Shown one piece after another: positions 1 through 64,000 of a stretch of DNA of 64,000 nt (its first letter is position 1; each line of letters opens with the position of its first letter). The notes below the pieces were generated by a model. It saw only the letters and a program-made list of their open reading frames with translations. It was not told where the DNA came from and searched no databases. Source of the stretch: an uncultured delta proteobacterium. Its GTDB lineage: Bacteria; Desulfobacterota; Syntrophia; Syntrophales; UBA2185. The stretch is taken from contig CAVSPA010000003.1 in the NCBI GenBank assembly GCA_963729715.1, positions 318,957 through 382,956 on the forward strand, written 5' to 3'. The position numbers were made by a program, and so were the translations under genes.

Positions 1-1286
1 TGCTCGGGCTCGTACACCGGATAGACTCCACTGGTGAACAGGAGTCGCTGACAGGAATCCTCCCGGGAACTTACCCCAACAATCCACACGGGGAGCTTGA
101 ACCGGGCTATGGACCGCGCCGTTGTGCCGCTGTGGGTCGGAACAAATACGGCTGCGGGGGTGATGCGCTCCAAAGCCGCTTCGACGCTCAAGGCGATCAG
201 ATCCGTGACACTGACCGGGCCAGTACGTTCATGAGTTGTGAGAGCCTCTTTGAGACCGTGGCGGGAACGGTATGGCTCTGTTGCTGCGGCAATCTTCGCC
301 AGCATGGTTACGGCATCCACGGGATATTTGCCCATGGCTGACTCTTCGGAAAGCATGACGCAGTCCGTGCCGTCAAGCACCGCATTGGCCACATCGGTAG
401 CCTCCGCTCGAGTGGGACGTCGGTTATCCGTCATAGACTCCAACATCTGCGTGGCCGTGATGACTGGTTTTCTCGCTCTGTTTGCACTGTGAATGAGGCG
501 CTTCTGAACAATGGCAATCTGCTCAATGGGTATTTCCACACCGAGGTCTCCTCGTGCGATCATGATGGCGTCCGCTGCTTCGATGATATCGTCCATGTGT
601 TCCAATGCTCTTGAGCGTTCAATTTTCGCAATTATGAAGGGGTTGTATCCCAACTCAGCCGCGTACTCCCGTACAGCAACAACATCCGCAGCACTTTCCA
701 CAAAGGACTGACTGATCGCATCCACTCCCTGTTCAAGAGCAAATGAAAGGCATTCGCGGTCGTAATCGGTGAAGGCGCTAATCCCGAGGTCGATGCCGGG
801 CAGGTTGAGTCCCTTGTGGGAGCGCAATTCTCCACCTACAAGGACCCGGCAGATGACCTCATTAGCCTCCACTTTTACTGCTTCAAGCTGTATAAGGCCG
901 TCATTCAGAAACAGGGTATCACCGGGATTAACCGATTCCGGGAGACGGTCAAAGCTAACCGACGCCCGTGTGGCATCTCCAACAATGTCCTGGGTCGTAA
1001 GGGTAAAAGAAGCCCTAGGCTGCAAATTAACCGGTTCATTTGCCAGATGGCCTATCCTTATCTTCGGGCCAGGCAGATCTGCCATGATGGCGATTCGTCG
1101 TCCCGCTGCAAGGGCCGAGGCGCGGAGGTTGTCGATAACCTGCTTATGACCGCCAAAATTGCCATGCGAGAAATTGAGCCGGGCCACATTCATACCGGCC
1201 TGTATCATCTCTGCCATGCATTCTCGCGATTCCGATGCCGGTCCAATGGTGGCCACAATTTTAGTCTTCTGTTCCGGAAGCTTCAT
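1..1286 (-). CDS. pyk: Pyruvate kinase (3' end outside window)
   Basis: Manual minus-strand translation: MKLPEQKTKIVATIGPASES, MNVARLNFSHG, IMIARGDLGVE, ITATQMLESM, PTRAEATDVANA, VMLSEESAMG. GGAGGT RBS upstream. Absent from ORF track because it runs off the window. Confidence 0.95.
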   Translation of the reverse strand, partial: MKLPEQKTKIVATIGPASESRECMAEMIQAGMNVARLNFSHGNFGGHKQVIDNLRASALAAGRRIAIMADLPGPKIRIGHLANEPVNLQPRASFTLTTQDIVGDATRASVSFDRLPESVNPGDTLFLNDGLIQLEAVKVEANEVICRVLVGGELRSHKGLNLPGIDLGISAFTDYDRECLSFALEQGVDAISQSFVESAADVVAVREYAAELGYNPFIIAKIERSRALEHMDDIIEAADAIMIARGDLGVEIPIEQIAIVQKRLIHSANRARKPVITATQMLESMTDNRRPTRAEATDVANAVLDGTDCVMLSEESAMGKYPVDAVTMLAKIAAATEPYRSRHGLKEALTTHERTGPVSVTDLIALSVEAALERITPAAVFVPTHSGTTARSIARFKLPVWIVGVSSREDSCQRLLFTSGVYPVYEPE

Positions 1287-1337
1287 AATAAGCCTGCACC
1301 TCCCCGGACACGATCTGCCCGTTAATTCAATGAGACT

Positions 1338-1373
1338 TGGCCTTTTTCAGGGCAACGCCCAAGAAAAAGGCCA
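1338..1373. other. Long hairpin in the pyk leader
   Basis: TGGCCTTTTTC(1338-1348)/GAAAAAGGCCA(1363-1373) plus inner GGGC/GCCC. Confidence 0.6.
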
Positions 1374-1422
1374 TGGGCGCATTGACCTCGTAAGATAGAT
1401 CACCTTACCTCTTTACTGCAAA

Positions 1423-1450
1423 ATTATATCTTTTTTTCTTTAAGAGTCAA
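1423..1450 (-). promoter_or_regulatory. Sigma70-type promoter for pyk
   Basis: Minus strand TTGACT-N16-TATAAT pointing at pyk. Confidence 0.65.
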
Positions 1451-1639
1451 AACATCTTGGACGTAATATATAAACAGATATGCTGTTTTAGTTGACAAGG
1501 AATGCCATTTGAAAGGGCGGATGTCCATCAAAATTGAACGATGCTCGACTTCAGCTTACTATAAGGAAGAGAAGTGAGGACATGGTATTCTCGATCTGTT
1601 AAAGTTGAATATCCCAAACAAAAATAACAGAAAGGAGAA

Positions 1640-2929
1640 GTGACCATGTCCGAAAGAGATTATAACAGGCAGGCAGCAAGGCGTCAAAGGATCAGTAAGA
1701 CAACACTGATAGTCGGGGTGGATGTCGGCAAAGCATTCAATGCAGTGGGATTTATGAATAAGGACGGCAACGTATTGGGCAGCTGTGCGAAGCTGTATAA
1801 CAACCGGGAAGGGTTTGAGCAGTTTGTAAAGATGATCGAAGGGTTTAAGGCAAGACATCGTCTCAGAGACGTCCTCATCGGGATGGAGCCAACGGGGCAT
1901 TACTGGAGGAAGCTTGCCTATTTTGCGAAAGAGCATGGCTATGAGGTACGCTTTGTGCGTACCACGGCGCTGAAGCATCACCGGGAGCTGGATGAGAGCT
2001 CCTCTGCCAAGAGCGACCGGAGAGATGCATTAACCATAGCGAACATTACCCGCGAGGGTAAATATATTGACACAGTCATCGAGGATGGAGTGCTGAGACA
2101 GCTGCGGACATTATCAAAGGCACGGGAGCGACTCCTCCGGTACAGTGTGAGTGCAAAGAACTCCCTGCATGCGGCCCTGGATGACTATTTTCCCGAACTG
2201 CATGAGATATTCCGGTCAATGGGGGCGCGGAGCTTGTGGGTGATTCTTGAGAAGTGTCCTTTCCCTGAGGACGTTGTGTTGATGGAGACGTCGATTCTTC
2301 AGGAATTGATTGCACGGAGTTCACGAAAGAAAGCGGGATCTGCCGGGAAGGCAAAAGCGCTCTGCGAGGCAGCTCAAAAGAGTATTGGAGTAAAGCAGAT
2401 CGGCACTGCTGACCGGTACCGGGTATGGATGTGCCTGGAAGAAGTGAAGCGGACGGTCCTGACGCTCAAGGATATGGATCGACAGCTGAAAAGCATGGTG
2501 AAGGACATTCCATCAACGCCCTATCTTATGAGCATCCCGGGCATAGGTTACCTGTCTGCAGCTGTATTTCTGGGAGAACTGGGAAACCCTGCGCATTTTC
2601 ATAATGCCCGCCAGATTGTGAAGTACGCCGGGTACGATCCCCAGGAGAGTGATTCGGGATCCCGGGTAGGCCGGAAGTTCATTTCCAAGAAGGGGCGGTG
2701 GCTCTTACGGAAGTATCTCTTCTTTATGAGTATGAGAGTGATAGTTTTGAGTAAATATTTTCAGGAGTATTATCACCGCAAATTAGAGACAAAGAACAGA
2801 GTGGGTCAGCAGCCCAGAAGGAAGGAGATTCTCTGCGCAGTGGCTATCAAGCTGATCAAAGTGATCTTTGCGCTGTTACGGGACAAACGGGGATTTGAAG
2901 ATATGGCGCCTGCTGTAGCAATTGCATAA
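1640..2929 (+). CDS. IS110-family transposase A (ATG at 1646 is an alternative start)
   Basis: GVDVGK, GMEPTG, KSDRRDA (DEDD RuvC-like domain); SIPGIG and YAGYDPQESDSG (Tnp domain with catalytic Ser motif). Confidence 0.95.
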   Translation: MTMSERDYNRQAARRQRISKTTLIVGVDVGKAFNAVGFMNKDGNVLGSCAKLYNNREGFEQFVKMIEGFKARHRLRDVLIGMEPTGHYWRKLAYFAKEHGYEVRFVRTTALKHHRELDESSSAKSDRRDALTIANITREGKYIDTVIEDGVLRQLRTLSKARERLLRYSVSAKNSLHAALDDYFPELHEIFRSMGARSLWVILEKCPFPEDVVLMETSILQELIARSSRKKAGSAGKAKALCEAAQKSIGVKQIGTADRYRVWMCLEEVKRTVLTLKDMDRQLKSMVKDIPSTPYLMSIPGIGYLSAAVFLGELGNPAHFHNARQIVKYAGYDPQESDSGSRVGRKFISKKGRWLLRKYLFFMSMRVIVLSKYFQEYYHRKLETKNRVGQQPRRKEILCAVAIKLIKVIFALLRDKRGFEDMAPAVAIA

Positions 2930-2936
2930 AACAAAA

Positions 2937-3118
2937 AAGTGGTTGTGGTGGAAGGAAGGACCGAATACCTTCGTAGGTCATAGGGCTTGCCTGATTCAGC
3001 TTGGTCAACTTCCACCACCCTTTTCGTCCTGCATAAGGTAAGTTGGGCAGAAGGCCCGTAGAATAAAAGAGGTTAGGTGAAAAGGAATAAAAAGGTTGAA
3101 GTACCACCACAACCATTT
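2937..3118 (+). ncRNA. Candidate bridge/seek-type RNA in the 3' end of IS110-A
   Basis: TGGTTGTGGTGG(2940-2951) pairs perfectly with CCACCACAACCA(3104-3115), closing ~180 nt directly after the transposase stop. Confidence 0.55.
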
Positions 3119-3250
3119 ACAGCTTTAACAGTGTGTCACAAGAAAATACTTGACTCTCTTCTCTAGAAGCAATTGACCCCGGTGCTACGCAACGGTGTTA
3201 TTCATGGAAGAAACTGGCTTTATTAAATACAATTTTATAAAGTAGGCAGC

Positions 3251-3424
3251 GGGTGCGCCCCGGCAGTCAATATCGACTCCTCACTGGTGTTTTCATACCC
3301 GTCTAGAAGCATGGTACCGAGTTTTCTTTGGTTATTACATTGGTGACAAATCATGTCTTTTCGGCATGTCAGATCCCGTTCAGGAGATTAACCGTTTTTT
3401 ACCGACTCGGGCCGGGGCATGCCC
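3251..3424 (+). ncRNA. Candidate bridge RNA in IS110-B left end (also at +1846, +4252, +59120)
   Basis: Closing stem GGGTGCGCCCCGGC/GCCGGGGCATGCCC; internal TCTAG (target-like, 3302-3306) and TCAGGAGA (donor-junction-like, 3380-3387). Confidence 0.65.
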
Positions 3425-3449
3425 CAAAAACCAATCAGGGGGCAAGTTT

Positions 3450-4850
3450 ATGGGGAACAGTCTTAAAAGGCAACAAAAGAAGTTATCCGTCCAATCTAAG
3501 GATTCCGGTATGCTATCCAAGCTTAATTTAAATGCCGCCGGCATAGATATCGGTGCAGAGGAGCATTATGTCGCCGTCCCCGAAGATCGTGATAAGCGTC
3601 CCGTGCGTCCCTTCCGTTGTTTTACATCCGATCTTCATGCGATGGCCCAGTGGCTGAAAGAGTGCCGAATCGATAGTGTTGCCATGGAGTCAACGGGTGT
3701 TTATTGGATCCCGGTGTTTCAAATTCTTGAGACTTACGGGTTTGAGGTCAAACTGGTTAATGCCCGGCATGTGAAGAATGTTCCCGGCCGTAAATCGGAT
3801 GTTCAGGATTGCCAATGGCTGCAAAATCTCCATGCCTACGGTCTTTTAAGCGGTTCGTTTCGACCGGAAGACCAGATTTGTGTTATGAGGAGTTATTGGC
3901 GCCATCGTGACAATCTTCTTCGTTATGCATCCTCTCATATCCTGCATATGCAGAAGGCGCTTACGGAGATGAATATCCAGTTGCACAAAGTCATCTCGGA
4001 CATTACCGGTGTTACCGGCATGCGTATTGTTCGTGCCATCATTGCCGGTGAACGTGACCCCCTTGTTTTGGCCGACATGAGAGATCGCCGTATTATGTGC
4101 AGTGTCCAGGACATCGTCAAATCTCTGGAAGGGGACTATCGTGAAGAACATATGTTTGCTTTAAAGCAGGCCGTTGAACTTTATGATTTTTATCACCAGA
4201 AGATTGAAGCCTGCGACCGGCAGATAGAGAATTGTTTGGCCCAATTCGACTCCAAATTAGACATAAACACTAACCCGGTGCCTCCTTCAAAAAAGGCAAA
4301 CAGAAAGCGAAGACGCAACGAGCCTAAAATCGATTTGCATACTCACTTATACCGGATAACCGGCGCCGATTTAACCCGGATTGACGGGTTGGATGTAATG
4401 ACTGTCCAGACGGTCATTAGCGAGGTTGGCCTTAATCCTGGATCTTTCCCTACGGAGAAGCATTTTGCATCCTGGCTGGGATTATGCCCGGATAATCGCA
4501 TTACCGGCGGAAAAGTAAAATCCAGTAAAACCCGTAAAGTGGTAAATCGAGCCGCTGAAGCCTTTCGTATGGCCGCTGAATCTTTGCACAGCAGCGCAAG
4601 TGCCTTAGGCGCATATTACCGCCGTATGCGTGCGAGGCTTGGGGCACCCAAAGCGATTACCGCGACAGCCCATAAGCTTGCCCGCATATTCTATCGTCTT
4701 TGGAAAAACGGAGAAGCCTATCTGGACCCCGGAGTAGACTATTATGAACAAAAATACAAAGAACGAGTAATTAAAAATATTAAAACTAAAGCCAAACAAT
4801 TAGGTTATGCCATTACTTTGGAACCTCTCGCTAGCAATGTACGTTCTTAG
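3450..4850 (+). CDS. IS110-family transposase B
   Basis: GIDIG, AMESTG, KSDVQD, IDGLD, FASWLGLCP motifs; start placed at 3450 (AGGGGG RBS) rather than 3366. Confidence 0.95.
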   Translation: MGNSLKRQQKKLSVQSKDSGMLSKLNLNAAGIDIGAEEHYVAVPEDRDKRPVRPFRCFTSDLHAMAQWLKECRIDSVAMESTGVYWIPVFQILETYGFEVKLVNARHVKNVPGRKSDVQDCQWLQNLHAYGLLSGSFRPEDQICVMRSYWRHRDNLLRYASSHILHMQKALTEMNIQLHKVISDITGVTGMRIVRAIIAGERDPLVLADMRDRRIMCSVQDIVKSLEGDYREEHMFALKQAVELYDFYHQKIEACDRQIENCLAQFDSKLDINTNPVPPSKKANRKRRRNEPKIDLHTHLYRITGADLTRIDGLDVMTVQTVISEVGLNPGSFPTEKHFASWLGLCPDNRITGGKVKSSKTRKVVNRAAEAFRMAAESLHSSASALGAYYRRMRARLGAPKAITATAHKLARIFYRLWKNGEAYLDPGVDYYEQKYKERVIKNIKTKAKQLGYAITLEPLASNVRS

Positions 4851-4883
4851 GAAACCCTTATTGGACGTGAAGTTTCTCAGGAG

Positions 4884-5010
4884 GTAAGTTGGGCAGAAGG
4901 CCCGTAGAATAAAAGAGGTTAGGTGAAAAGGAATAAAAAGGTTGAAGTACCACCACAACCATTTACAGCTTTAACAGTGTGTCACAAGAAAATACTTGAC
5001 TCTCTTCTCT
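4884..5010 (+). repeat. 127-bp duplicate of 3038-3164 (left flank of IS110-B)
   Basis: Identical at offset 1846. Confidence 0.92.
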
Positions 5011-6729
5011 AGAAGCAATTGACCCCGGTGCTACGCAACGGTGTTATTCATGGAAGAAACTGGCTTTATTAAATACAATTTTATAAAGTAGGCAGCGGGT
5101 GCGCCCCGGCAGTCAATATCGACTCCTCACTGGTGTTTTCATACCCGTCTAGAAGCATGGTACCGAGTTTTCTTTGGTTATTACATTGGTGACAAATCAT
5201 GTCTTTTCGGCATGTCAGATCCCGTTCAGGAGATTAACCGTTTTTTACCGACTCGGGCCGGGGCATGCCCCAAAAACCAATCAGGGGGCAAGTTTATGGG
5301 GAACAGTCTTAAAAGGCAACAAAAGAAGTTATCCGTCCAATCTAAGGATTCCGGTATGCTATCCAAGCTTAATTTAAATGCCGCCGGCATAGATATCGGT
5401 GCAGAGGAGCATTATGTCGCCGTCCCCGAAGATCGTGATAAGCGTCCCGTGCGTCCCTTCCGTTGTTTTACATCCGATCTTCATGCGATGGCCCAGTGGC
5501 TGAAAGAGTGCCGAATCGATAGTGTTGCCATGGAGTCAACGGGTGTTTATTGGATCCCGGTGTTTCAAATTCTTGAGACTTACGGGTTTGAGGTCAAACT
5601 GGTTAATGCCCGGCATGTGAAGAATGTTCCCGGCCGTAAATCGGATGTTCAGGATTGCCAATGGCTGCAAAATCTCCATGCCTACGGTCTTTTAAGCGGT
5701 TCGTTTCGACCGGAAGACCAGATTTGTGTTATGAGGAGTTATTGGCGCCATCGTGACAATCTTCTTCGTTATGCATCCTCTCATATCCTGCATATGCAGA
5801 AGGCGCTTACGGAGATGAATATCCAGTTGCACAAAGTCATCTCGGACATTACCGGTGTTACCGGCATGCGTATTGTTCGTGCCATCATTGCCGGTGAACG
5901 TGACCCCCTTGTTTTGGCCGACATGAGAGATCGCCGTATTATGTGCAGTGTCCAGGACATCGTCAAATCTCTGGAAGGGGACTATCGTGAAGAACATATG
6001 TTTGCTTTAAAGCAGGCCGTTGAACTTTATGATTTTTATCACCAGAAGATTGAAGCCTGCGACCGGCAGATAGAGAATTGTTTGGCCCAATTCGACTCCA
6101 AATTAGACATAAACACTAACCCGGTGCCTCCTTCAAAAAAGGCAAACAGAAAGCGAAGACGCAACGAGCCTAAAATCGATTTGCATACTCACTTATACCG
6201 GATAACCGGCGCCGATTTAACCCGGATTGACGGGTTGGATGTAATGACTGTCCAGACGGTCATTAGCGAGGTTGGCCTTAATCCTGGATCTTTCCCTACG
6301 GAGAAGCATTTTGCATCCTGGCTGGGATTATGCCCGGATAATCGCATTACCGGCGGAAAAGTAAAATCCAGTAAAACCCGTAAAGTGGTAAATCGAGCCG
6401 CTGAAGCCTTTCGTATGGCCGCTGAATCTTTGCACAGCAGCGCAAGTGCCTTAGGCGCATATTACCGCCGTATGCGTGCGAGGCTTGGGGCACCCAAAGC
6501 GATTACCGCGACAGCCCATAAGCTTGCCCGCATATTCTATCGTCTTTGGAAAAACGGAGAAGCCTATCTGGACCCCGGAGTAGACTATTATGAACAAAAA
6601 TACAAAGAACGAGTAATTAAAAATATTAAAACTAAAGCCAAACAATTAGGTTATGCCATTACTTTGGAACCTCTCGCTAGCAATGTACGTTCTTAGGAAA
6701 CCCTTATTGGACGTGAAGTTTCTCAGGAG
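5011..6729 (+). mobile_element. IS110-B copy 2
   Basis: Same sequence and identical ORF as copy 1, offset 1846. Confidence 0.93.
5296..6696 (+). CDS. IS110-family transposase B
   Basis: Identical protein to copy 1. Confidence 0.95.
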   Translation: MGNSLKRQQKKLSVQSKDSGMLSKLNLNAAGIDIGAEEHYVAVPEDRDKRPVRPFRCFTSDLHAMAQWLKECRIDSVAMESTGVYWIPVFQILETYGFEVKLVNARHVKNVPGRKSDVQDCQWLQNLHAYGLLSGSFRPEDQICVMRSYWRHRDNLLRYASSHILHMQKALTEMNIQLHKVISDITGVTGMRIVRAIIAGERDPLVLADMRDRRIMCSVQDIVKSLEGDYREEHMFALKQAVELYDFYHQKIEACDRQIENCLAQFDSKLDINTNPVPPSKKANRKRRRNEPKIDLHTHLYRITGADLTRIDGLDVMTVQTVISEVGLNPGSFPTEKHFASWLGLCPDNRITGGKVKSSKTRKVVNRAAEAFRMAAESLHSSASALGAYYRRMRARLGAPKAITATAHKLARIFYRLWKNGEAYLDPGVDYYEQKYKERVIKNIKTKAKQLGYAITLEPLASNVRS

Positions 6730-7317
6730 GCAAACAGAAAGCGAAGACGCAACGAGCCTAAAATCGATTTGCATACTCACTTATACCGGATAACCGGCGC
6801 CGATTTAACCCGGATTGACGGGTTGGATGTAATGACTGTCCAGACGGTCATTAGCGAGGTTGGCCTTAATCCTGGATCTTTCCCTACGGAGAAGCATTTT
6901 GCATCCTGGCTGGGATTATGCCCGGATAATCGCATTACCGGCGGAAAAGTAAAATCCAGTAAAACCCGTAAAGTGGTAAATCGAGCCGCTGAAGCCTTTC
7001 GTATGGCCGCTGAATCTTTGCACAGCAGCGCAAGTGCCTTAGGCGCATATTACCGCCGTATGCGTGCGAGGCTTGGGGCACCCAAAGCGATTACCGCGAC
7101 AGCCCATAAGCTTGCCCGCATATTCTATCGTCTTTGGAAAAACGGAGAAGCCTATCTGGACCCCGGAGTAGACTATTATGAACAAAAATACAAAGAACGA
7201 GTAATTAAAAATATTAAAACTAAAGCCAAACAATTAGGTTATGCCATTACTTTGGAACCTCTCGCTAGCAATGTACGTTCTTAGGAAACCCTTATTGGAC
7301 GTGAAGTTTCTCAGGAG
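6730..7317 (+). pseudogene. 588-bp partial IS110-B (3' third of transposase plus right end)
   Basis: Tandem duplicate of 6142-6729; encodes only the C-terminal 171 aa. Confidence 0.92.
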
Positions 7318-7318
7318 G

Positions 7319-7416
7319 AAGAGGTTAGGTGAAAAGGAATAAAAAGGTTGAAGTACCACCACAACCATTTACAGCTTTAACAGTGTGTCACAAGAAAATA
7401 CTTGACTCTCTTCTCT
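7319..7416 (+). repeat. 98-bp duplicate of 3067-3164
   Basis: Identical at offset 4252. Confidence 0.9.
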
Positions 7417-9135
7417 AGAAGCAATTGACCCCGGTGCTACGCAACGGTGTTATTCATGGAAGAAACTGGCTTTATTAAATACAATTTTATAAAGTAGGCA
7501 GCGGGTGCGCCCCGGCAGTCAATATCGACTCCTCACTGGTGTTTTCATACCCGTCTAGAAGCATGGTACCGAGTTTTCTTTGGTTATTACATTGGTGACA
7601 AATCATGTCTTTTCGGCATGTCAGATCCCGTTCAGGAGATTAACCGTTTTTTACCGACTCGGGCCGGGGCATGCCCCAAAAACCAATCAGGGGGCAAGTT
7701 TATGGGGAACAGTCTTAAAAGGCAACAAAAGAAGTTATCCGTCCAATCTAAGGATTCCGGTATGCTATCCAAGCTTAATTTAAATGCCGCCGGCATAGAT
7801 ATCGGTGCAGAGGAGCATTATGTCGCCGTCCCCGAAGATCGTGATAAGCGTCCCGTGCGTCCCTTCCGTTGTTTTACATCCGATCTTCATGCGATGGCCC
7901 AGTGGCTGAAAGAGTGCCGAATCGATAGTGTTGCCATGGAGTCAACGGGTGTTTATTGGATCCCGGTGTTTCAAATTCTTGAGACTTACGGGTTTGAGGT
8001 CAAACTGGTTAATGCCCGGCATGTGAAGAATGTTCCCGGCCGTAAATCGGATGTTCAGGATTGCCAATGGCTGCAAAATCTCCATGCCTACGGTCTTTTA
8101 AGCGGTTCGTTTCGACCGGAAGACCAGATTTGTGTTATGAGGAGTTATTGGCGCCATCGTGACAATCTTCTTCGTTATGCATCCTCTCATATCCTGCATA
8201 TGCAGAAGGCGCTTACGGAGATGAATATCCAGTTGCACAAAGTCATCTCGGACATTACCGGTGTTACCGGCATGCGTATTGTTCGTGCCATCATTGCCGG
8301 TGAACGTGACCCCCTTGTTTTGGCCGACATGAGAGATCGCCGTATTATGTGCAGTGTCCAGGACATCGTCAAATCTCTGGAAGGGGACTATCGTGAAGAA
8401 CATATGTTTGCTTTAAAGCAGGCCGTTGAACTTTATGATTTTTATCACCAGAAGATTGAAGCCTGCGACCGGCAGATAGAGAATTGTTTGGCCCAATTCG
8501 ACTCCAAATTAGACATAAACACTAACCCGGTGCCTCCTTCAAAAAAGGCAAACAGAAAGCGAAGACGCAACGAGCCTAAAATCGATTTGCATACTCACTT
8601 ATACCGGATAACCGGCGCCGATTTAACCCGGATTGACGGGTTGGATGTAATGACTGTCCAGACGGTCATTAGCGAGGTTGGCCTTAATCCTGGATCTTTC
8701 CCTACGGAGAAGCATTTTGCATCCTGGCTGGGATTATGCCCGGATAATCGCATTACCGGCGGAAAAGTAAAATCCAGTAAAACCCGTAAAGTGGTAAATC
8801 GAGCCGCTGAAGCCTTTCGTATGGCCGCTGAATCTTTGCACAGCAGCGCAAGTGCCTTAGGCGCATATTACCGCCGTATGCGTGCGAGGCTTGGGGCACC
8901 CAAAGCGATTACCGCGACAGCCCATAAGCTTGCCCGCATATTCTATCGTCTTTGGAAAAACGGAGAAGCCTATCTGGACCCCGGAGTAGACTATTATGAA
9001 CAAAAATACAAAGAACGAGTAATTAAAAATATTAAAACTAAAGCCAAACAATTAGGTTATGCCATTACTTTGGAACCTCTCGCTAGCAATGTACGTTCTT
9101 AGGAAACCCTTATTGGACGTGAAGTTTCTCAGGAG
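7417..9135 (+). mobile_element. IS110-B copy 3
   Basis: Same sequence as copy 1, offset 4252; followed by unique DNA from 9136. Confidence 0.93.
7702..9102 (+). CDS. IS110-family transposase B
   Basis: Identical protein to copy 1. Confidence 0.95.
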   Translation: MGNSLKRQQKKLSVQSKDSGMLSKLNLNAAGIDIGAEEHYVAVPEDRDKRPVRPFRCFTSDLHAMAQWLKECRIDSVAMESTGVYWIPVFQILETYGFEVKLVNARHVKNVPGRKSDVQDCQWLQNLHAYGLLSGSFRPEDQICVMRSYWRHRDNLLRYASSHILHMQKALTEMNIQLHKVISDITGVTGMRIVRAIIAGERDPLVLADMRDRRIMCSVQDIVKSLEGDYREEHMFALKQAVELYDFYHQKIEACDRQIENCLAQFDSKLDINTNPVPPSKKANRKRRRNEPKIDLHTHLYRITGADLTRIDGLDVMTVQTVISEVGLNPGSFPTEKHFASWLGLCPDNRITGGKVKSSKTRKVVNRAAEAFRMAAESLHSSASALGAYYRRMRARLGAPKAITATAHKLARIFYRLWKNGEAYLDPGVDYYEQKYKERVIKNIKTKAKQLGYAITLEPLASNVRS

Positions 9136-9510
9136 AGGAAGGTAGTCTCACCCACCACATCTATCATAACTGAAGTTGTTCCTAGAAGGATTACAACCCG
9201 TTATCAATATCGATGCGGAAGATCGTACACCTCATCTCTGTACGAATGGGTGTAAACACTATAATGGTCTCACTGATGTCAATGATGGGAAGTTCAAGGA
9301 ATTCTGTTGGGAAGATGGATGCAAAAAAATTTACGAAGGTCATTATTGTAGATTGCATGATAGTAATAAACCCATATTCTAGTCAGGATCTCTGTTCAGT
9401 TCATACGGGGTCGGAAGACCAGTAACTTTTGAGGGAGGGGGAAATTTGGTCTGTATTTGAAGACCAGCATGCTTTATAGTGTATTAAACTACTAATAGGA
9501 GGAACAAAAT

Positions 9511-9693
9511 ATGCCCACTGTGATTATCGAAGCAGATGAAGGAAGAACAGTCGAGCAAAAGAGGGGTCTGGTGAAAGACATTACCGATGCCGTTTGCAGG
9601 AATTTCAAAGTCCCTCCGGATGCTGTGACCATTTTTATTCACGAAGGGAAAAAGGAAAATCGCGGGAAAGCGGGAAAGCTCGCTATAGACTGA
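9511..9693 (+). CDS. 4-oxalocrotonate tautomerase family protein
   Basis: 60 aa, N-terminal Pro after Met, EGRTVEQKRGLV motif, AGGAGG RBS. Confidence 0.92.
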   Translation: MPTVIIEADEGRTVEQKRGLVKDITDAVCRNFKVPPDAVTIFIHEGKKENRGKAGKLAID

Positions 9694-10104
9694 GGCCTCC
9701 ACCACATTTATTCTCCCTCGTTCGAGCCGCTGTGTTTCGGGAATTTCTTCAGTACGCAGACGTCTGCGCTTTTTAGTAAATTCAGACCTCACCTGTCCGA
9801 TAGGCGTAGTCCTTATGGAGATCCTCATAACTTTATCTGATTAGTACGCCCGTCTTTAGATGAAGAGAAGTCGCGGCTGCCGAAGGTCGTTTCAATAGAG
9901 GCCGTTCCTTCTATTTTGTGAGGGGTTTTCCATGATCCAGCTCAGACAGGATACAAGACACATGGAAAGGGTGAGCAGGAACAATATACTAAGATCCACC
10001 ATCCATTTTTTTGCTTTCAGATTATTCATGCATAATGATTTATCAACAATGACCAAGGCAGCTCATTTGTTTTTCATGCTTGCCATGGGGGCTATATATG
10101 CATA

Positions 10105-62284: not shown

Positions 62285-64000
62285 AGAAGCAATTGACCCC
62301 GGTGCTACGCAACGGTGTTATTCATGGAAGAAACTGGCTTTATTAAATACAATTTTATAAAGTAGGCAGCGGGTGCGCCCCGGCAGTCAATATCGACTCC
62401 TCACTGGTGTTTTCATACCCGTCTAGAAGCATGGTACCGAGTTTTCTTTGGTTATTACATTGGTGACAAATCATGTCTTTTCGGCATGTCAGATCCCGTT
62501 CAGGAGATTAACCGTTTTTTACCGACTCGGGCCGGGGCATGCCCCAAAAACCAATCAGGGGGCAAGTTTATGGGGAACAGTCTTAAAAGGCAACAAAAGA
62601 AGTTATCCGTCCAATCTAAGGATTCCGGTATGCTATCCAAGCTTAATTTAAATGCCGCCGGCATAGATATCGGTGCAGAGGAGCATTATGTCGCCGTCCC
62701 CGAAGATCGTGATAAGCGTCCCGTGCGTCCCTTCCGTTGTTTTACATCCGATCTTCATGCGATGGCCCAGTGGCTGAAAGAGTGCCGAATCGATAGTGTT
62801 GCCATGGAGTCAACGGGTGTTTATTGGATCCCGGTGTTTCAAATTCTTGAGACTTACGGGTTTGAGGTCAAACTGGTTAATGCCCGGCATGTGAAGAATG
62901 TTCCCGGCCGTAAATCGGATGTTCAGGATTGCCAATGGCTGCAAAATCTCCATGCCTACGGTCTTTTAAGCGGTTCGTTTCGACCGGAAGACCAGATTTG
63001 TGTTATGAGGAGTTATTGGCGCCATCGTGACAATCTTCTTCGTTATGCATCCTCTCATATCCTGCATATGCAGAAGGCGCTTACGGAGATGAATATCCAG
63101 TTGCACAAAGTCATCTCGGACATTACCGGTGTTACCGGCATGCGTATTGTTCGTGCCATCATTGCCGGTGAACGTGACCCCCTTGTTTTGGCCGACATGA
63201 GAGATCGCCGTATTATGTGCAGTGTCCAGGACATCGTCAAATCTCTGGAAGGGGACTATCGTGAAGAACATATGTTTGCTTTAAAGCAGGCCGTTGAACT
63301 TTATGATTTTTATCACCAGAAGATTGAAGCCTGCGACCGGCAGATAGAGAATTGTTTGGCCCAATTCGACTCCAAATTAGACATAAACACTAACCCGGTG
63401 CCTCCTTCAAAAAAGGCAAACAGAAAGCGAAGACGCAACGAGCCTAAAATCGATTTGCATACTCACTTATACCGGATAACCGGCGCCGATTTAACCCGGA
63501 TTGACGGGTTGGATGTAATGACTGTCCAGACGGTCATTAGCGAGGTTGGCCTTAATCCTGGATCTTTCCCTACGGAGAAGCATTTTGCATCCTGGCTGGG
63601 ATTATGCCCGGATAATCGCATTACCGGCGGAAAAGTAAAATCCAGTAAAACCCGTAAAGTGGTAAATCGAGCCGCTGAAGCCTTTCGTATGGCCGCTGAA
63701 TCTTTGCACAGCAGCGCAAGTGCCTTAGGCGCATATTACCGCCGTATGCGTGCGAGGCTTGGGGCACCCAAAGCGATTACCGCGACAGCCCATAAGCTTG
63801 CCCGCATATTCTATCGTCTTTGGAAAAACGGAGAAGCCTATCTGGACCCCGGAGTAGACTATTATGAACAAAAATACAAAGAACGAGTAATTAAAAATAT
63901 TAAAACTAAAGCCAAACAATTAGGTTATGCCATTACTTTGGAACCTCTCGCTAGCAATGTACGTTCTTAGGAAACCCTTATTGGACGTGAAGTTTCTCAG
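62285..64000 (+). mobile_element. IS110-B copy 4 (last 3 bp outside window)
   Basis: Same sequence as copy 1 at offset 59120 with a different left flank. Confidence 0.93.
62570..63970 (+). CDS. IS110-family transposase B
   Basis: Identical protein to copy 1. Confidence 0.95.
   Translation: MGNSLKRQQKKLSVQSKDSGMLSKLNLNAAGIDIGAEEHYVAVPEDRDKRPVRPFRCFTSDLHAMAQWLKECRIDSVAMESTGVYWIPVFQILETYGFEVKLVNARHVKNVPGRKSDVQDCQWLQNLHAYGLLSGSFRPEDQICVMRSYWRHRDNLLRYASSHILHMQKALTEMNIQLHKVISDITGVTGMRIVRAIIAGERDPLVLADMRDRRIMCSVQDIVKSLEGDYREEHMFALKQAVELYDFYHQKIEACDRQIENCLAQFDSKLDINTNPVPPSKKANRKRRRNEPKIDLHTHLYRITGADLTRIDGLDVMTVQTVISEVGLNPGSFPTEKHFASWLGLCPDNRITGGKVKSSKTRKVVNRAAEAFRMAAESLHSSASALGAYYRRMRARLGAPKAITATAHKLARIFYRLWKNGEAYLDPGVDYYEQKYKERVIKNIKTKAKQLGYAITLEPLASNVRS

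What the first reader, a model, noticed from the sequence alone, without database searches (positions are those of the whole stretch)
3038..9135. IS110 tandem array: one fixed right end joined to variable upstream AG sites
Seen: the invariant right end TTTCTCAGG-AG has four different continuations. (a) At 4884 it continues as 3038, whose native context is ataAG|gtaag. (b) At 6730 it continues as transposase-internal 6142 (aaaAG|gcaaa). (c) At 7318 there is one extra G, then sequence from 3067 (imperfect join). (d) At 9136 it continues into unique flank. Two units carry 127 or 98 bp of left-flank DNA and one is a 588-bp sub-element fragment; no simple end-to-end circle junction is present. Known: IS110 recombinases exchange strands at a short core. 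Inference: the right end recombined one-endedly with cryptic AG cores upstream (sister chromosome, or imprecise circles that reintegrated), making tandem duplications that copy flanking DNA.
Basis: partly seen in the sequence, partly recalled or inferred. Interest (0 to 1): 0.85.

Follow-up and report, generated by a model that had tools for sequence, protein, structure and literature searches.

The report
IS110 tandem array from one-ended recombination
A jumping gene of the RNA-guided IS110 type has piled up into a 6-kb head-to-tail array because its right end repeatedly joined to stray AG sites upstream, a behaviour that 2026 preprints describe as half-match recombination, so this is a clear natural example and not a new mechanism.

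Summary
Window 3038-9135 is two identical 1846-bp units, a 588-bp copy of the unit's 3' end, one orphan G, and a 1817-bp unit.

The element (ISb, 1712 bp plus a duplicated AG core) is an IS110-family RNA-guided transposon. It sits 6 bp inside the right end of a second IS110-family element, ISx. Empty ISx ends in related genomes fix ISb's ends and the AG core. Covariation in up to 29 relatives defines its bridge-RNA guides.

All three internal junctions keep the right end (= left donor, LD) plus AG and join it to unrelated upstream sequence. Two are clean AG sites and one is imprecise.

Contigs of two other public runs show cyclic units. One carries junction (a) on a different ISx allele. The other carries a new junction at a fourth AG site. 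So this is not an assembly quirk, although junction (b) was not seen and (c) was not tested.

It matches "LD-only" tandem expansion and half-match recombination in 2026 preprints.

Verdict: new member of a known kind. The scan had earlier noted head-to-tail miniature IS110 arrays in other genomes, not this type.

The parts
1547..3169 (+). ISx, a second IS110-family element (left part). Transposase at 1640-2929. The 3' non-coding RNA region at 2930-3169 has an outer stem 2941-2953/3104-3116. Its last 6 nt lie at 9136-9141.
   Evidence: Pfam DEDD_Tnp_IS110 + Transposase_20. NCBIfam NF033542, 207.4 bits against a cut-off of 140. A second copy lies on contig C4 at 97.7% identity. Uninterrupted right ends in 9 loci of related genomes read ..CTCTTCYYTAGAAGAGGAAG and then diverge.
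3038..4883 (+). Unit 1 (1846 bp): 132 bp of the ISx 3' region (3038-3169, ending in target left half TCTAGA + core AG), then ISb copy 1 (3170-4881), then core AG (4882-4883).
3170..3449 (+). ISb bridge RNA region. Left target guide UCUAGAAG at 3302-3309 with handshake dinucleotide CA at 3310-3311. Left donor guide UUCAGGAG at 3379-3386. Each guide follows a CCCG and a conserved hairpin.
   Evidence: The donor guide's last 7+ nt recur in the 3'-end region (right end) in 21 of 29 relatives by script, and in 6 more. The target guide's last 7+ nt recur upstream at the left junction (left flank + AG) in 20 of 26 relatives. The handshake dinucleotide equals the first 2 nt of the left end in 18 of those 20. 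In the consensus fold, 18 of 28 pairs show compensatory changes. No Rfam family matched.
3450..4850 (+). ISb recombinase gene, 466 aa from the ATG at 3450 (an upstream in-frame ATG at 3366 would give 494 aa). Copies also at 5296-6696 and 7702-9102.
   Evidence: Pfam DEDD_Tnp_IS110 6e-18 and Transposase_20 1e-10. NF033542, 280.6 bits. Weak match to IS621, PDB 8wt6, 1.2e-5.
4884..6729 (+). Unit 2, identical to unit 1. Junction (a) at 4883|4884 joins right end + AG to GTAAGTT (= 3038).
   Evidence: The same junction appears in a cyclic 1874-nt contig of run X1.
6730..7317 (+). 588-bp partial unit (ISb 3' 586 bp + core AG). Junction (b) at 6729|6730 joins right end + AG to GCAAAC (= 6142/4296). 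It carries a 171-aa ORF (6769-7284) holding only the Transposase_20 domain.
   Evidence: Not seen in the four runs laid.
7318..7318 (+). Orphan G at junction (c).
   Evidence: It could be the G of position 3038 if (c) is junction (a) with a 28-bp deletion of 3039-3066. That is inference.
7319..9135 (+). Unit 3 (1817 bp): 103 bp of the ISx 3' region (= 3067-3169), then ISb copy 3 (7422-9133), then core AG (9134-9135).
9136..9141 (+). AGGAAG. This is both the right half of ISb's target and the terminal 6 nt of ISx. Unique DNA follows.
62290..64000 (+). A further solitary ISb copy with left junction ..ACCCTAGA-AG|CAATTG. It is cut 3 nt short of its end (core AG included) by the end of contig C3.

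Best explanation
The array records at least three recent aberrant recombination events of one active IS110-family element, ISb.

Normal behaviour. ISb's bridge RNA reads its target (..TCTAGA-AG-AGG..) with the target loop and its own joined ends with the donor loop. ISb inserts at an AG core that ends up on both sides of the element. Here the target is the right end of another IS110-family element, ISx.

Aberrant behaviour. The right junction (right end + AG, the 'left donor' half-site, matched over 7 nt by the donor guide) was exchanged with an upstream site that shares little more than the AG core. Those sites were 3037|3038 and about 3067 in the ISx non-coding region, and 4295|4296 inside ISb itself.

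How that makes a tandem duplication. Either the exchange happened between sister chromosomes, or it produced an extended or partial circle (1846, 1818 or 588 bp) that re-entered at a resident right end or by homologous recombination. Both routes give a tandem duplication whose junction reads right end-AG-upstream sequence. Three nested duplications of this type reproduce the observed order exactly.

Shown: the anatomy, the AG core, the guide-to-end matches, the single shared right breakpoint, the absence of canonical junctions, and the recurrence of such units in other samples.

Inferred: that the ISb recombinase and bridge RNA catalysed the events, which route was used, and the order of events.
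For: 1. All units are 100% identical, and all 8 ISb right ends in the genome are identical, so the events are recent.

2. Empty ISx ends in 9 loci from related genomes give the target ..TAGA-AG-AGGAAG. They place ISb's ends at 3170 and 4881 with AG duplicated. All 4 independent insertion sites have TAGA-AG on the left. The 3 whose right side is present have AGG.

3. The bridge-RNA guides covary with the ends and flanks across relatives. The donor guide UUCAGGAG covers ..TCAGG+AG, which is exactly the part kept at junctions (a), (b) and (c).

4. Three junctions in the window plus one in run X2 have the same right breakpoint. Three of the four are clean 2-nt AG overlaps, with P about 2e-4 for AG alone.

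5. Independent data. In run X1 a 1874-nt contig closes on itself through junction (a). It has depth 18.1 against 8.0 for the ISx entry contig, and it carries the ISx allele of a different species. In run X2 an 1837-nt contig closes with a 1807-nt period at right end-AG|GTGAAAAGG, native context GGTTAG|GTG at 3076|3077, with 255 nt on the shorter side.

6. Relatives of ISb also form tandem structures. 3 of 78 loci do so: a precise dimer (L087), a 585-bp 3' fragment abutting a full copy through a precise circle-type junction (L046), and a dimer with 2 changed bases after the core (L100).

7. Literature. Hu et al. [quoted passage not shown] Xie et al. (bioRxiv 10.64898/2026.08.31.748434, sections 7-9 read) show that core plus one arm suffices. 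Sun et al. (bioRxiv 10.1101/2025.10.25.684509, passages read) saw tandem cargo repeats in 3 of 96 colonies.
Against: No reads of the source sample were available, so the order and copy number of the array rest on the assembly alone.

Junction (b) lay in the stretch laid on four runs, and no contig crossed it. Junction (c) was outside that stretch.

In X1 the contig has only 28 nt on the far side of junction (a). That is the most a k=31 cyclic contig can show, but it is below the tool's 31-nt rule.

Cyclic contigs cannot tell a tandem array from a free circle.

Junction (c) is not a clean AG join. It needs an extra G, or a secondary 28-bp deletion without microhomology.

The partner sites match no guide arm well. 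Matches to the left target arm are 3/7, 2/7 and 0/7 by my own comparison of the sequences. The half-match papers mostly describe partners that have at least one matching arm.

Three of four left breakpoints cluster within 40 bp (3038-3077), which 'any AG' does not explain.

The supporting papers are preprints. Their figures and supplements were not seen.
Confidence: 0.72

Rival explanations
1. Assembly artefact. Reads from free extended or partial circles, or chimeric long reads, were threaded into the chromosome and made an array that does not exist as such.
For: Only the assembly supports the full order. Junction (b) was not found in four other runs and (c) was not tested. The genome is a 19-contig draft whose contig C3 itself breaks inside an ISb copy. 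Small circles are often assembled as multimers (my own knowledge).
Against: Junction (a) and a sister junction (e) occur in contigs of two other runs from two studies. The X1 contig's depth is about twice that of its flank. Three different junction types in one fixed order, embedded between unique flanks, are hard to make by mis-threading. Solitary ISb copies elsewhere are resolved inside long contigs. Even if true, the odd junctions would still be real molecules.
Confidence: 0.08
2. Recombinase-independent illegitimate recombination. Replication slippage or template switching at 2-nt AG microhomologies made ordinary tandem duplications that happen to include the element.
For: Two-nucleotide microhomology and one untemplated base (junction c) are typical of such events (my own knowledge). 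The partner sites show no guide match.
Against: Four junctions share one right breakpoint, and it coincides to the base with the element's end plus core as defined independently from empty sites. Random duplications would scatter both breakpoints. The same pattern recurs in other samples with the same fixed end.
Confidence: 0.07
3. Canonical circle insertions into pseudo-targets in the ISx region and inside ISb, later rearranged by homologous recombination between copies.
For: The site at 3068-3069 (ATAAA-AG-AGGTTAGG) is a good pseudo-target. It matches 3 of 4 bases to the left of the core and AGG to the right. Relatives do form precise circle-type junctions (L087, L046).
Against: A canonical insertion leaves a new left junction (site-AG|CAATTG). 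None exists: the sequence at 3037|3038 is native, and every left end in the array has the same TCTAGA-AG context. No right end-AG-left end junction is present. The observed (c) junction is not the product expected at that pseudo-target.
Confidence: 0.05
4. The neighbouring element ISx, not ISb, made junction (c). Read as ..CTCAGG-AGGAAG|AGGTTAGG, it joins the exact ISx terminus (AGGAAG) to an AG site at 3069|3070, after loss of one AG from the AGAG run.
For: ISx also appears to use an AG core. Its guide-like motif CCTG-ATTCAG-CT at 2990-3001 matches its left junction ..TTCAG|CT in both copies. Its last 8 nt are intact next to ISb.
Against: It needs an extra unexplained 2-nt deletion. The only thing it explains beyond the simpler reading is the identity of one base (1 in 4 by chance). 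It cannot explain junctions (a), (b) and (e).
Confidence: 0.05

Closest known systems
Tandem expansion of IS110 loci with LD-only repeat-unit boundaries (Hu, Xie, Yang, Rubin, bioRxiv 10.64898/2026.08.14.744561; sections 8, 9 and 26 read)
   Same: Both show same-strand tandem duplication of full and partial IS110 modules. In both, boundaries keep the left-donor (right-end) guide match while the other side is unrelated. Both have partial units that reuse a full-element terminus, and both have recurrent internal endpoints.
   Different: That work is a statistical survey. Here each junction is resolved to the base, the partner sites keep the AG core, the duplicated 'cargo' is part of another IS110 element's guide-RNA gene, and sister junctions are seen in other samples. 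The element belongs to a 466-aa subfamily with an AG core, not the CT core of IS621. I did not see their figures or supplements, so I cannot say whether this locus or subfamily is in their set.
Half-match recombination of IS621 (Xie et al., bioRxiv 10.64898/2026.08.31.748434; sections 7-9 read)
   Same: In both, one guide arm plus the core on one substrate is enough for strand exchange. This explains off-target junctions that retain only LD or only RD.
   Different: That was shown in vitro and in E. coli editing data for IS621. There the partner usually carried a recognisable half-site. Here the partners show only the core. Nothing was reconstituted here.
ISPpu9 modular minicircles (Pares-Guillen et al., NAR 2025, PMC12288879; abstract and outline read)
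   Same: An IS110-family element uses alternative boundaries and so yields circles with more or less than the transposase module.
   Different: ISPpu9 uses repeated, related boundary boxes. Here the alternative boundaries are unrelated sequences sharing only AG.
CazIS110-1 tandem cargo repeats (Sun et al., bioRxiv 10.1101/2025.10.25.684509; abstract and passages of section 6 read)
   Same: Tandem repeats arise as by-products of IS110 excision.
   Different: There they are precise and unstable, and all reverted under induction. Here they are imprecise at one side and fixed enough to be assembled.
One-ended transposition of ISEcp1 or IS91-type elements
   Same: One fixed end is used together with variable surrogate second ends, and this mobilises adjacent DNA.
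   Different: Those use unrelated enzymes (DDE or HUH) and unrelated mechanisms, and no RNA guide.

Membership tests
IS110 family (RNA-guided bridge recombinase elements) | Recombinase with an N-terminal DEDD (RuvC-like) domain and a C-terminal Transposase_20 domain | tested here: met
   Pfam PF01548 (6.1e-18) and PF02371 (1.3e-10). NCBIfam NF033542 'IS110 family RNA-guided transposase', 280.6 bits against a cut-off of 140.
IS110 family (RNA-guided bridge recombinase elements) | A short core present once in the empty target and on both sides of the inserted element, with no terminal inverted repeats | tested here: met
   Empty sites read ..TAGA-AG-AGGAAG in 9 loci. Occupied sites read ..TAGA-AG|CAATTG...CTCAGG-AG|AGG.
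IS110 family (RNA-guided bridge recombinase elements) | A non-coding bridge RNA whose loops covary with target and donor | tested here: met
   The left donor guide matches the right end in 21 of 29 relatives, plus 6 more. The left target guide matches the left flank in 20 of 26. The handshake dinucleotide matches in 18 of those 20. 18 of 28 consensus pairs show compensatory change. The right-side guides (RTG, RDG) were not pinned down.
IS110 family (RNA-guided bridge recombinase elements) | Catalytic serine in the C-terminal domain (S241 of IS621) | tested here: inconclusive
   The phmmer alignment puts Thr (RITGGK) opposite the Ser of IS621's YESGSS. Relatives have either S or T at that position. 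The alignment is weak (10.5 bits for that stretch).
IS110 family (RNA-guided bridge recombinase elements) | Circular intermediate with a right end-core-left end junction | not testable with these tools
   The junction is absent from the assembly, which says nothing about rare circles. Precise junctions of this type do occur in relatives L087 and L046.
LD-only half-match tandem expansion (Hu et al. 2026; Xie et al. 2026) | Adjacent same-strand copies, at least 95% identical, units of at least 50 bp, at least 2 copies | tested here: met
   Units of 1846, 1846, 588 and 1817 bp, all 100% identical.
LD-only half-match tandem expansion (Hu et al. 2026; Xie et al. 2026) | The repeat-unit boundary keeps the left-donor guide match plus core, while the other side lacks the right-donor match | tested here: met
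   All 3 junctions keep ..TCAGG-AG, which equals the guide at 3380-3386. The first 7 nt after the core match the left end CAATTGA at only 1, 2 and 1 positions for (a), (b) and (e), by my comparison of the sequences.
LD-only half-match tandem expansion (Hu et al. 2026; Xie et al. 2026) | Dependence on the active recombinase and bridge RNA | not testable with these tools
   Needs reconstitution.
Simple head-to-tail IS dimer (circle inserted next to a resident copy) | An inter-copy junction equal to the circle junction (right end-core-left end) | tested here: not met
   No such junction exists in the genome. All inter-copy junctions carry 103-132 bp of ISx DNA or start inside ISb.

The most novel reading that the evidence does not exclude
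The left breakpoints may not be arbitrary AG sites. Three of four fall within 40 bp of the neighbouring element's guide-RNA gene, at or next to motifs built like guide segments: CCTG-CATA-AG-GT at 3027-3038, and AAGAGGTT-AG-GT at 3067-3078. The second resembles ISx's own right end, which is ISb's natural target. Junction (a) also occurs on a second ISx allele in another sample. If so, DNA that encodes one bridge system's guides would act as decoy half-sites for a second, nested bridge system. The result, an ISb unit that now carries about 130 bp of another element's guide-RNA gene and may circularise with it, would be a natural route for IS110 elements to swap or acquire guide modules and so change target specificity.
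Probability: 0.1. Interest if true: 0.7.

Novelty: new member of a known kind. Interest (0 to 1): 0.4.

Why it matters
Bridge recombinases are being developed as programmable genome editors, and their off-target and by-product reactions matter for that use. This locus is a base-resolved natural record of several such by-products from one element. The right end plus core is always kept. The partner sites share only the AG core. Two kinds of unit are duplicated: full elements with extra upstream DNA, and a partial sub-element.

The locus supports, in an unrelated AG-core subfamily from uncultured anaerobes, the half-match and LD-only picture proposed in 2026 preprints for IS621 and in genome surveys. 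It adds two details worth testing: clustering of partner sites in a neighbouring element's guide-RNA gene, and recurrence of the same or sister junctions in different populations. It does not reveal a new mechanism.

Tried and rejected
1. Rfam scan of 1300-9600 at E up to 1 gave no family. The bridge RNA had to be defined from relatives instead.

2. Single-sequence fold of 3170-3450 gave z = -1.4, which is uninformative. The promoter and terminator scan was at background level.

3. An exact 20-mer of the right end returned 0 hits in both metagenome contigs and genome contigs. A wide census of right-end junctions was therefore not possible. ISb itself was found only in its own genome among the 41 genomes searched; related genomes hold only ISx.

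4. Junction (b) in other runs: no contig crossed 6729|6730 in X1-X4. Contigs drop rare variants, so this is no evidence of absence. Junction (c) and the native right junction were outside the stretch laid. I chose 4840-6760 to avoid a long internal repeat.

5. I looked for the right-side guides (RTG, RDG) of the ISb bridge RNA by eye in the alignments. I found only weak, wobble-dependent candidates: UUUUCUUU at 3324-3331, CUCCUC near 3279, and GUCAAU near 3257. None is claimed.

6. I compared the partner sites with all four guide arms and found nothing above what short sequences give by chance.

7. The reciprocal deletion product (ISx with 3038-9135 removed at AG) is not in the genome.

8. Earlier scan notes by place and by words held nothing on this locus. 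They did hold notes on head-to-tail miniature IS110 arrays elsewhere.

9. I tried to read ISx's own bridge or seek RNA fully. I got a plausible left target guide (2990-3001) and a plausible left donor guide (GGAAGGAAG, 2953-2961), but no covariation to prove either, because all ISx relatives share the same ends.

Full report
**What is there.** A script shows that 3038-4883 and 4884-6729 are identical, that 6730-7317 equals the last 588 bp of that unit, and that 7319-9135 equals unit positions 30-1846. Position 7318 is a G with no source on either side. Each unit holds a 466-aa (or 494-aa) ORF with the Pfam domains DEDD_Tnp_IS110 and Transposase_20. That ORF scores 280.6 bits on NCBIfam NF033542, 'IS110 family RNA-guided transposase', against a cut-off of 140. 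I call the element ISb.

**Where the element really begins and ends.** The window is contig C3:318957-382956 of a 19-contig, 3.76-Mb genome. BLAST against the laid genome finds eight ISb right ends, all 100% identical. Four are in the array. One lies on C4 with the same 132-bp upstream context. Solitary copies lie at C3:100 kb, on C5, and at the end of C3.

The DNA left of the array is a second IS110-family element, ISx. Its transposase is at 1640-2929 and it scores 207.4 bits on NF033542. ISx has two copies in the genome at 97.7% identity, and both carry ISb at the same place.

Related genomes carry ISx without ISb. In nine loci the ISx right end reads ..CTCTTCYYTAGAAGAGGAAG and then diverges. 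Comparing this with the occupied sites gives four results:
- the target is ..TCTAGA-AG-AGGAAG;
- the AG core is duplicated on insertion;
- the ISb left end is CAATTGACC.. at 3170;
- the ISb right end is ..TTTCTCAGG at 4881, followed by AG.

All four independent insertion sites have TAGA-AG on the left. The three whose right side is present have AGG. The 'left-flank DNA' in the units is 132 or 103 bp of ISx's 3' non-coding region. The six bases after 9135 are the last six bases of ISx.

**The bridge RNA.** Rfam has no match, so I used 78 loci that encode relatives of the ISb recombinase. Their right ends all finish in AG, with consensus GTTnCTnnnnAG.

In the 5' untranslated region, a conserved CCCG is followed by 6 variable bases and then AG. 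The last five variable bases plus AG (7 nt) copy each element's own right end. This held in 21 of 29 relatives by the script. It also held in the six relatives (L032-L037) where that script picked the wrong motif but one search shows the match.

A second such motif about 60-110 nt upstream copies the left flank plus AG in 20 of 26 relatives. The two bases after its AG equal the first two bases of the left end in 18 of those 20. This is the behaviour of the left donor guide, the left target guide and the 'handshake' dinucleotide described for IS621. My sources are Durrant et al. 2024 (PMC11208160, passages read) and Hiraizumi et al. 2026 (PMC13626964, abstract read).

In ISb the target guide is at 3302-3309 (+CA) and the donor guide is at 3379-3386. 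RNAalifold on 22 sequences gives hairpins before each guide and enclosing stems, and 18 of 28 pairs show compensatory changes. I could not fix the right-side guides.

**The junctions.** All three internal junctions keep ..TCAGG-AG, which is exactly the donor-guide match. They join it to:
- (a) GTAAGTT.. (native context CATA-AG|GTAAGTT);
- (b) GCAAACAG.. inside the recombinase gene (native context AAAA-AG|GCAAAC);
- (c) G, then AAGAGGTTAGG.. (native context AATAA|AAGAGG).

No right end-AG-left end junction exists in the genome. Neither does a new left junction or a reciprocal deletion product.

The order A-B-IS-B-IS-i-(G)b2-IS-right flank can be produced by three nested tandem duplications that all end at the ISb right end. 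It cannot be produced by canonical insertions into pseudo-targets, because those would leave new site-AG|CAATTG junctions.

AG occupies 5.9% of positions in 2930-4881. Three clean junctions at AG therefore has P about 2e-4. The shared right breakpoint is the stronger argument.

Junction (c) has two readings. It may be an imprecise join with one untemplated G. Or it may be junction (a) followed by a 28-bp deletion of 3039-3066. A third reading, with ISx's own terminus as the donor, needs an additional 2-nt loss, and I rate it low.

**Independent data.** One search found 20 runs holding part of window 500-9900. I laid Logan contigs of the four best holders on 4840-6760.

- X1: a 1874-nt contig runs from 4882 through the unit and the right end into 4884-4911 and closes on its own start, giving a period of 1844. 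It has depth 18.1, against 8.0 for the contig that enters from ISx. Only 28 nt lie beyond junction (a). That is the limit for a cyclic k=31 contig and is below the tool's 31-nt rule. Its ISx part differs from the window by a 2-nt deletion and one T>C. This is the allele of ISx in related genome G003, while the ISb part is identical.
- X2: this run is from another study. An 1837-nt contig closes with a period of 1807, joining the right end + AG to GTGAAAAGG (native context GGTT-AG|GTG at 3076|3077). It has 255 nt on the shorter side and no differences from the window. This is a fourth junction, (e), again at AG.
- X3: shows the ordinary ISx-to-ISb left context.
- X4: shows the right end followed by a different flank.

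No contig crossed junction (b), and (c) was not in the stretch laid. Units that contain ISb plus a piece of ISx, closed through the right end + AG, therefore recur in different populations with different left breakpoints. Contigs cannot say whether they are tandem or circular.

**Relatives.** Self-comparison of the 78 loci found long, near-identical direct repeats in three:
- L087 is a perfect dimer whose junction is the circle junction;
- L046 has a 585-bp 3' fragment ending in its right end + AG, directly abutting the left end of a full copy;
- L100 is a dimer whose junction differs from its left junction in the two bases after AG.

Many loci are short contigs, so 3 of 78 is a lower bound.

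**Comparison with what is known.** I made two full-text searches.

Hu et al. [quoted passage not shown] They report repeat-unit boundaries that 'preferentially retained LD-only matches', an unmatched side with no residual similarity, partial circles that reuse the full element's termini, and recurrent internal endpoints.

Xie et al. (Sept 2026 preprint) show for IS621 that the core plus one arm is enough, that excision needs only the donor arms, and that a single-stranded circle is copied out.

Sun et al. (2025 preprint) saw tandem cargo repeats in 3 of 96 colonies and call them transient by-products.

In bridge-RNA terms the ISb right end is the left donor (LD). The array is therefore a textbook LD-only case.

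**What remains open.**
1. Which route applies: sister exchange, or an aberrant circle that re-enters.
2. Why three of four partner sites cluster in 3038-3077. This stretch lies inside ISx's guide-RNA gene and includes motifs shaped like guide segments. One of them (..ATAAA-AG-AGGTTAGG) mimics ISx's right end, which is ISb's own target.
3. Whether junction (a) on two ISx alleles means recurrence or inheritance with conversion.
4. Whether the array exists exactly as assembled.

**Verdict.** It is a new member of a known kind, with moderate interest as a clean natural example from an unstudied AG-core subfamily.

Noticed in passing
window 4479-4496 (recombinase motif RITGGK); relatives L031-L108: In the phmmer alignment to IS621 (PDB 8wt6), ISb has Thr where IS621 has its catalytic Ser241 (YESGSS against RITGGK). 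Among relatives the position is S in some (ISGG, TSGG) and T in others (ITGG, VTGG). ISb is evidently active, with 8 identical copies, so a Thr nucleophile may work in this subfamily. The alignment is weak.
   Followed up: partly
window 2990-3004, 1547-1556, 2953-2961: ISx carries guide-like motifs of the same build as ISb's. CCTG-ATTCAG-CT-TGG matches its left junction ..TTCAG|CT in both genomic copies, which suggests an AG core and a true left end at 1555. GGAAGGAAG matches its right end ..AGGAAG. The guides lie 3' of the transposase, as described for the IS1111 group (group placement recalled, not tested). There is no covariation to confirm this, because all ISx relatives share the same ends.
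   Followed up: partly
window 62290-64000 (end of contig C3): Contig C3 stops 3 nt before the end (core AG included) of a solitary ISb copy, so the assembly breaks at this repeat. What lies beyond is unknown.
   Followed up: no
L087:1988-5212; L046:1651-3898; L100:2078-5967: Relatives of ISb in three other MAGs form tandem structures: a precise dimer, a 585-bp 3' fragment fused to a full copy through a precise circle-type junction, and a dimer whose junction differs in the 2 bases after the AG core. The 585-bp fragment of L046 and the 588-bp fragment here both start just before the Transposase_20 domain.
   Followed up: partly
window 6769-7284: The 588-bp partial unit holds an intact 171-aa ORF that consists of the Transposase_20 domain alone (Pfam 3.3e-11). 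Whether it is expressed or interferes with the full recombinase is unknown.
   Followed up: no
run X4, behind window 6729: In one run the ISb right end + AG is followed by AAGATGTCAATTG.., a flank not present in this genome and unlike the usual AGG right half of the target. It is either another off-target insertion or another half-match junction.
   Followed up: no
window 3146-3169 with 9136-9141: ISb's natural target in ISx lies in a near-palindrome, CTCTTCT-CT-AGAAGAG, followed by GAAG. The other three insertion sites share only YYTAGA-AG-AGG, so the palindrome is not required.
   Followed up: partly
L094:1-1281: The flank of one relative holds a roughly 125-bp-period tandem repeat of about 10 copies at 75-83% identity. 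It is unrelated to the IS.
   Followed up: no
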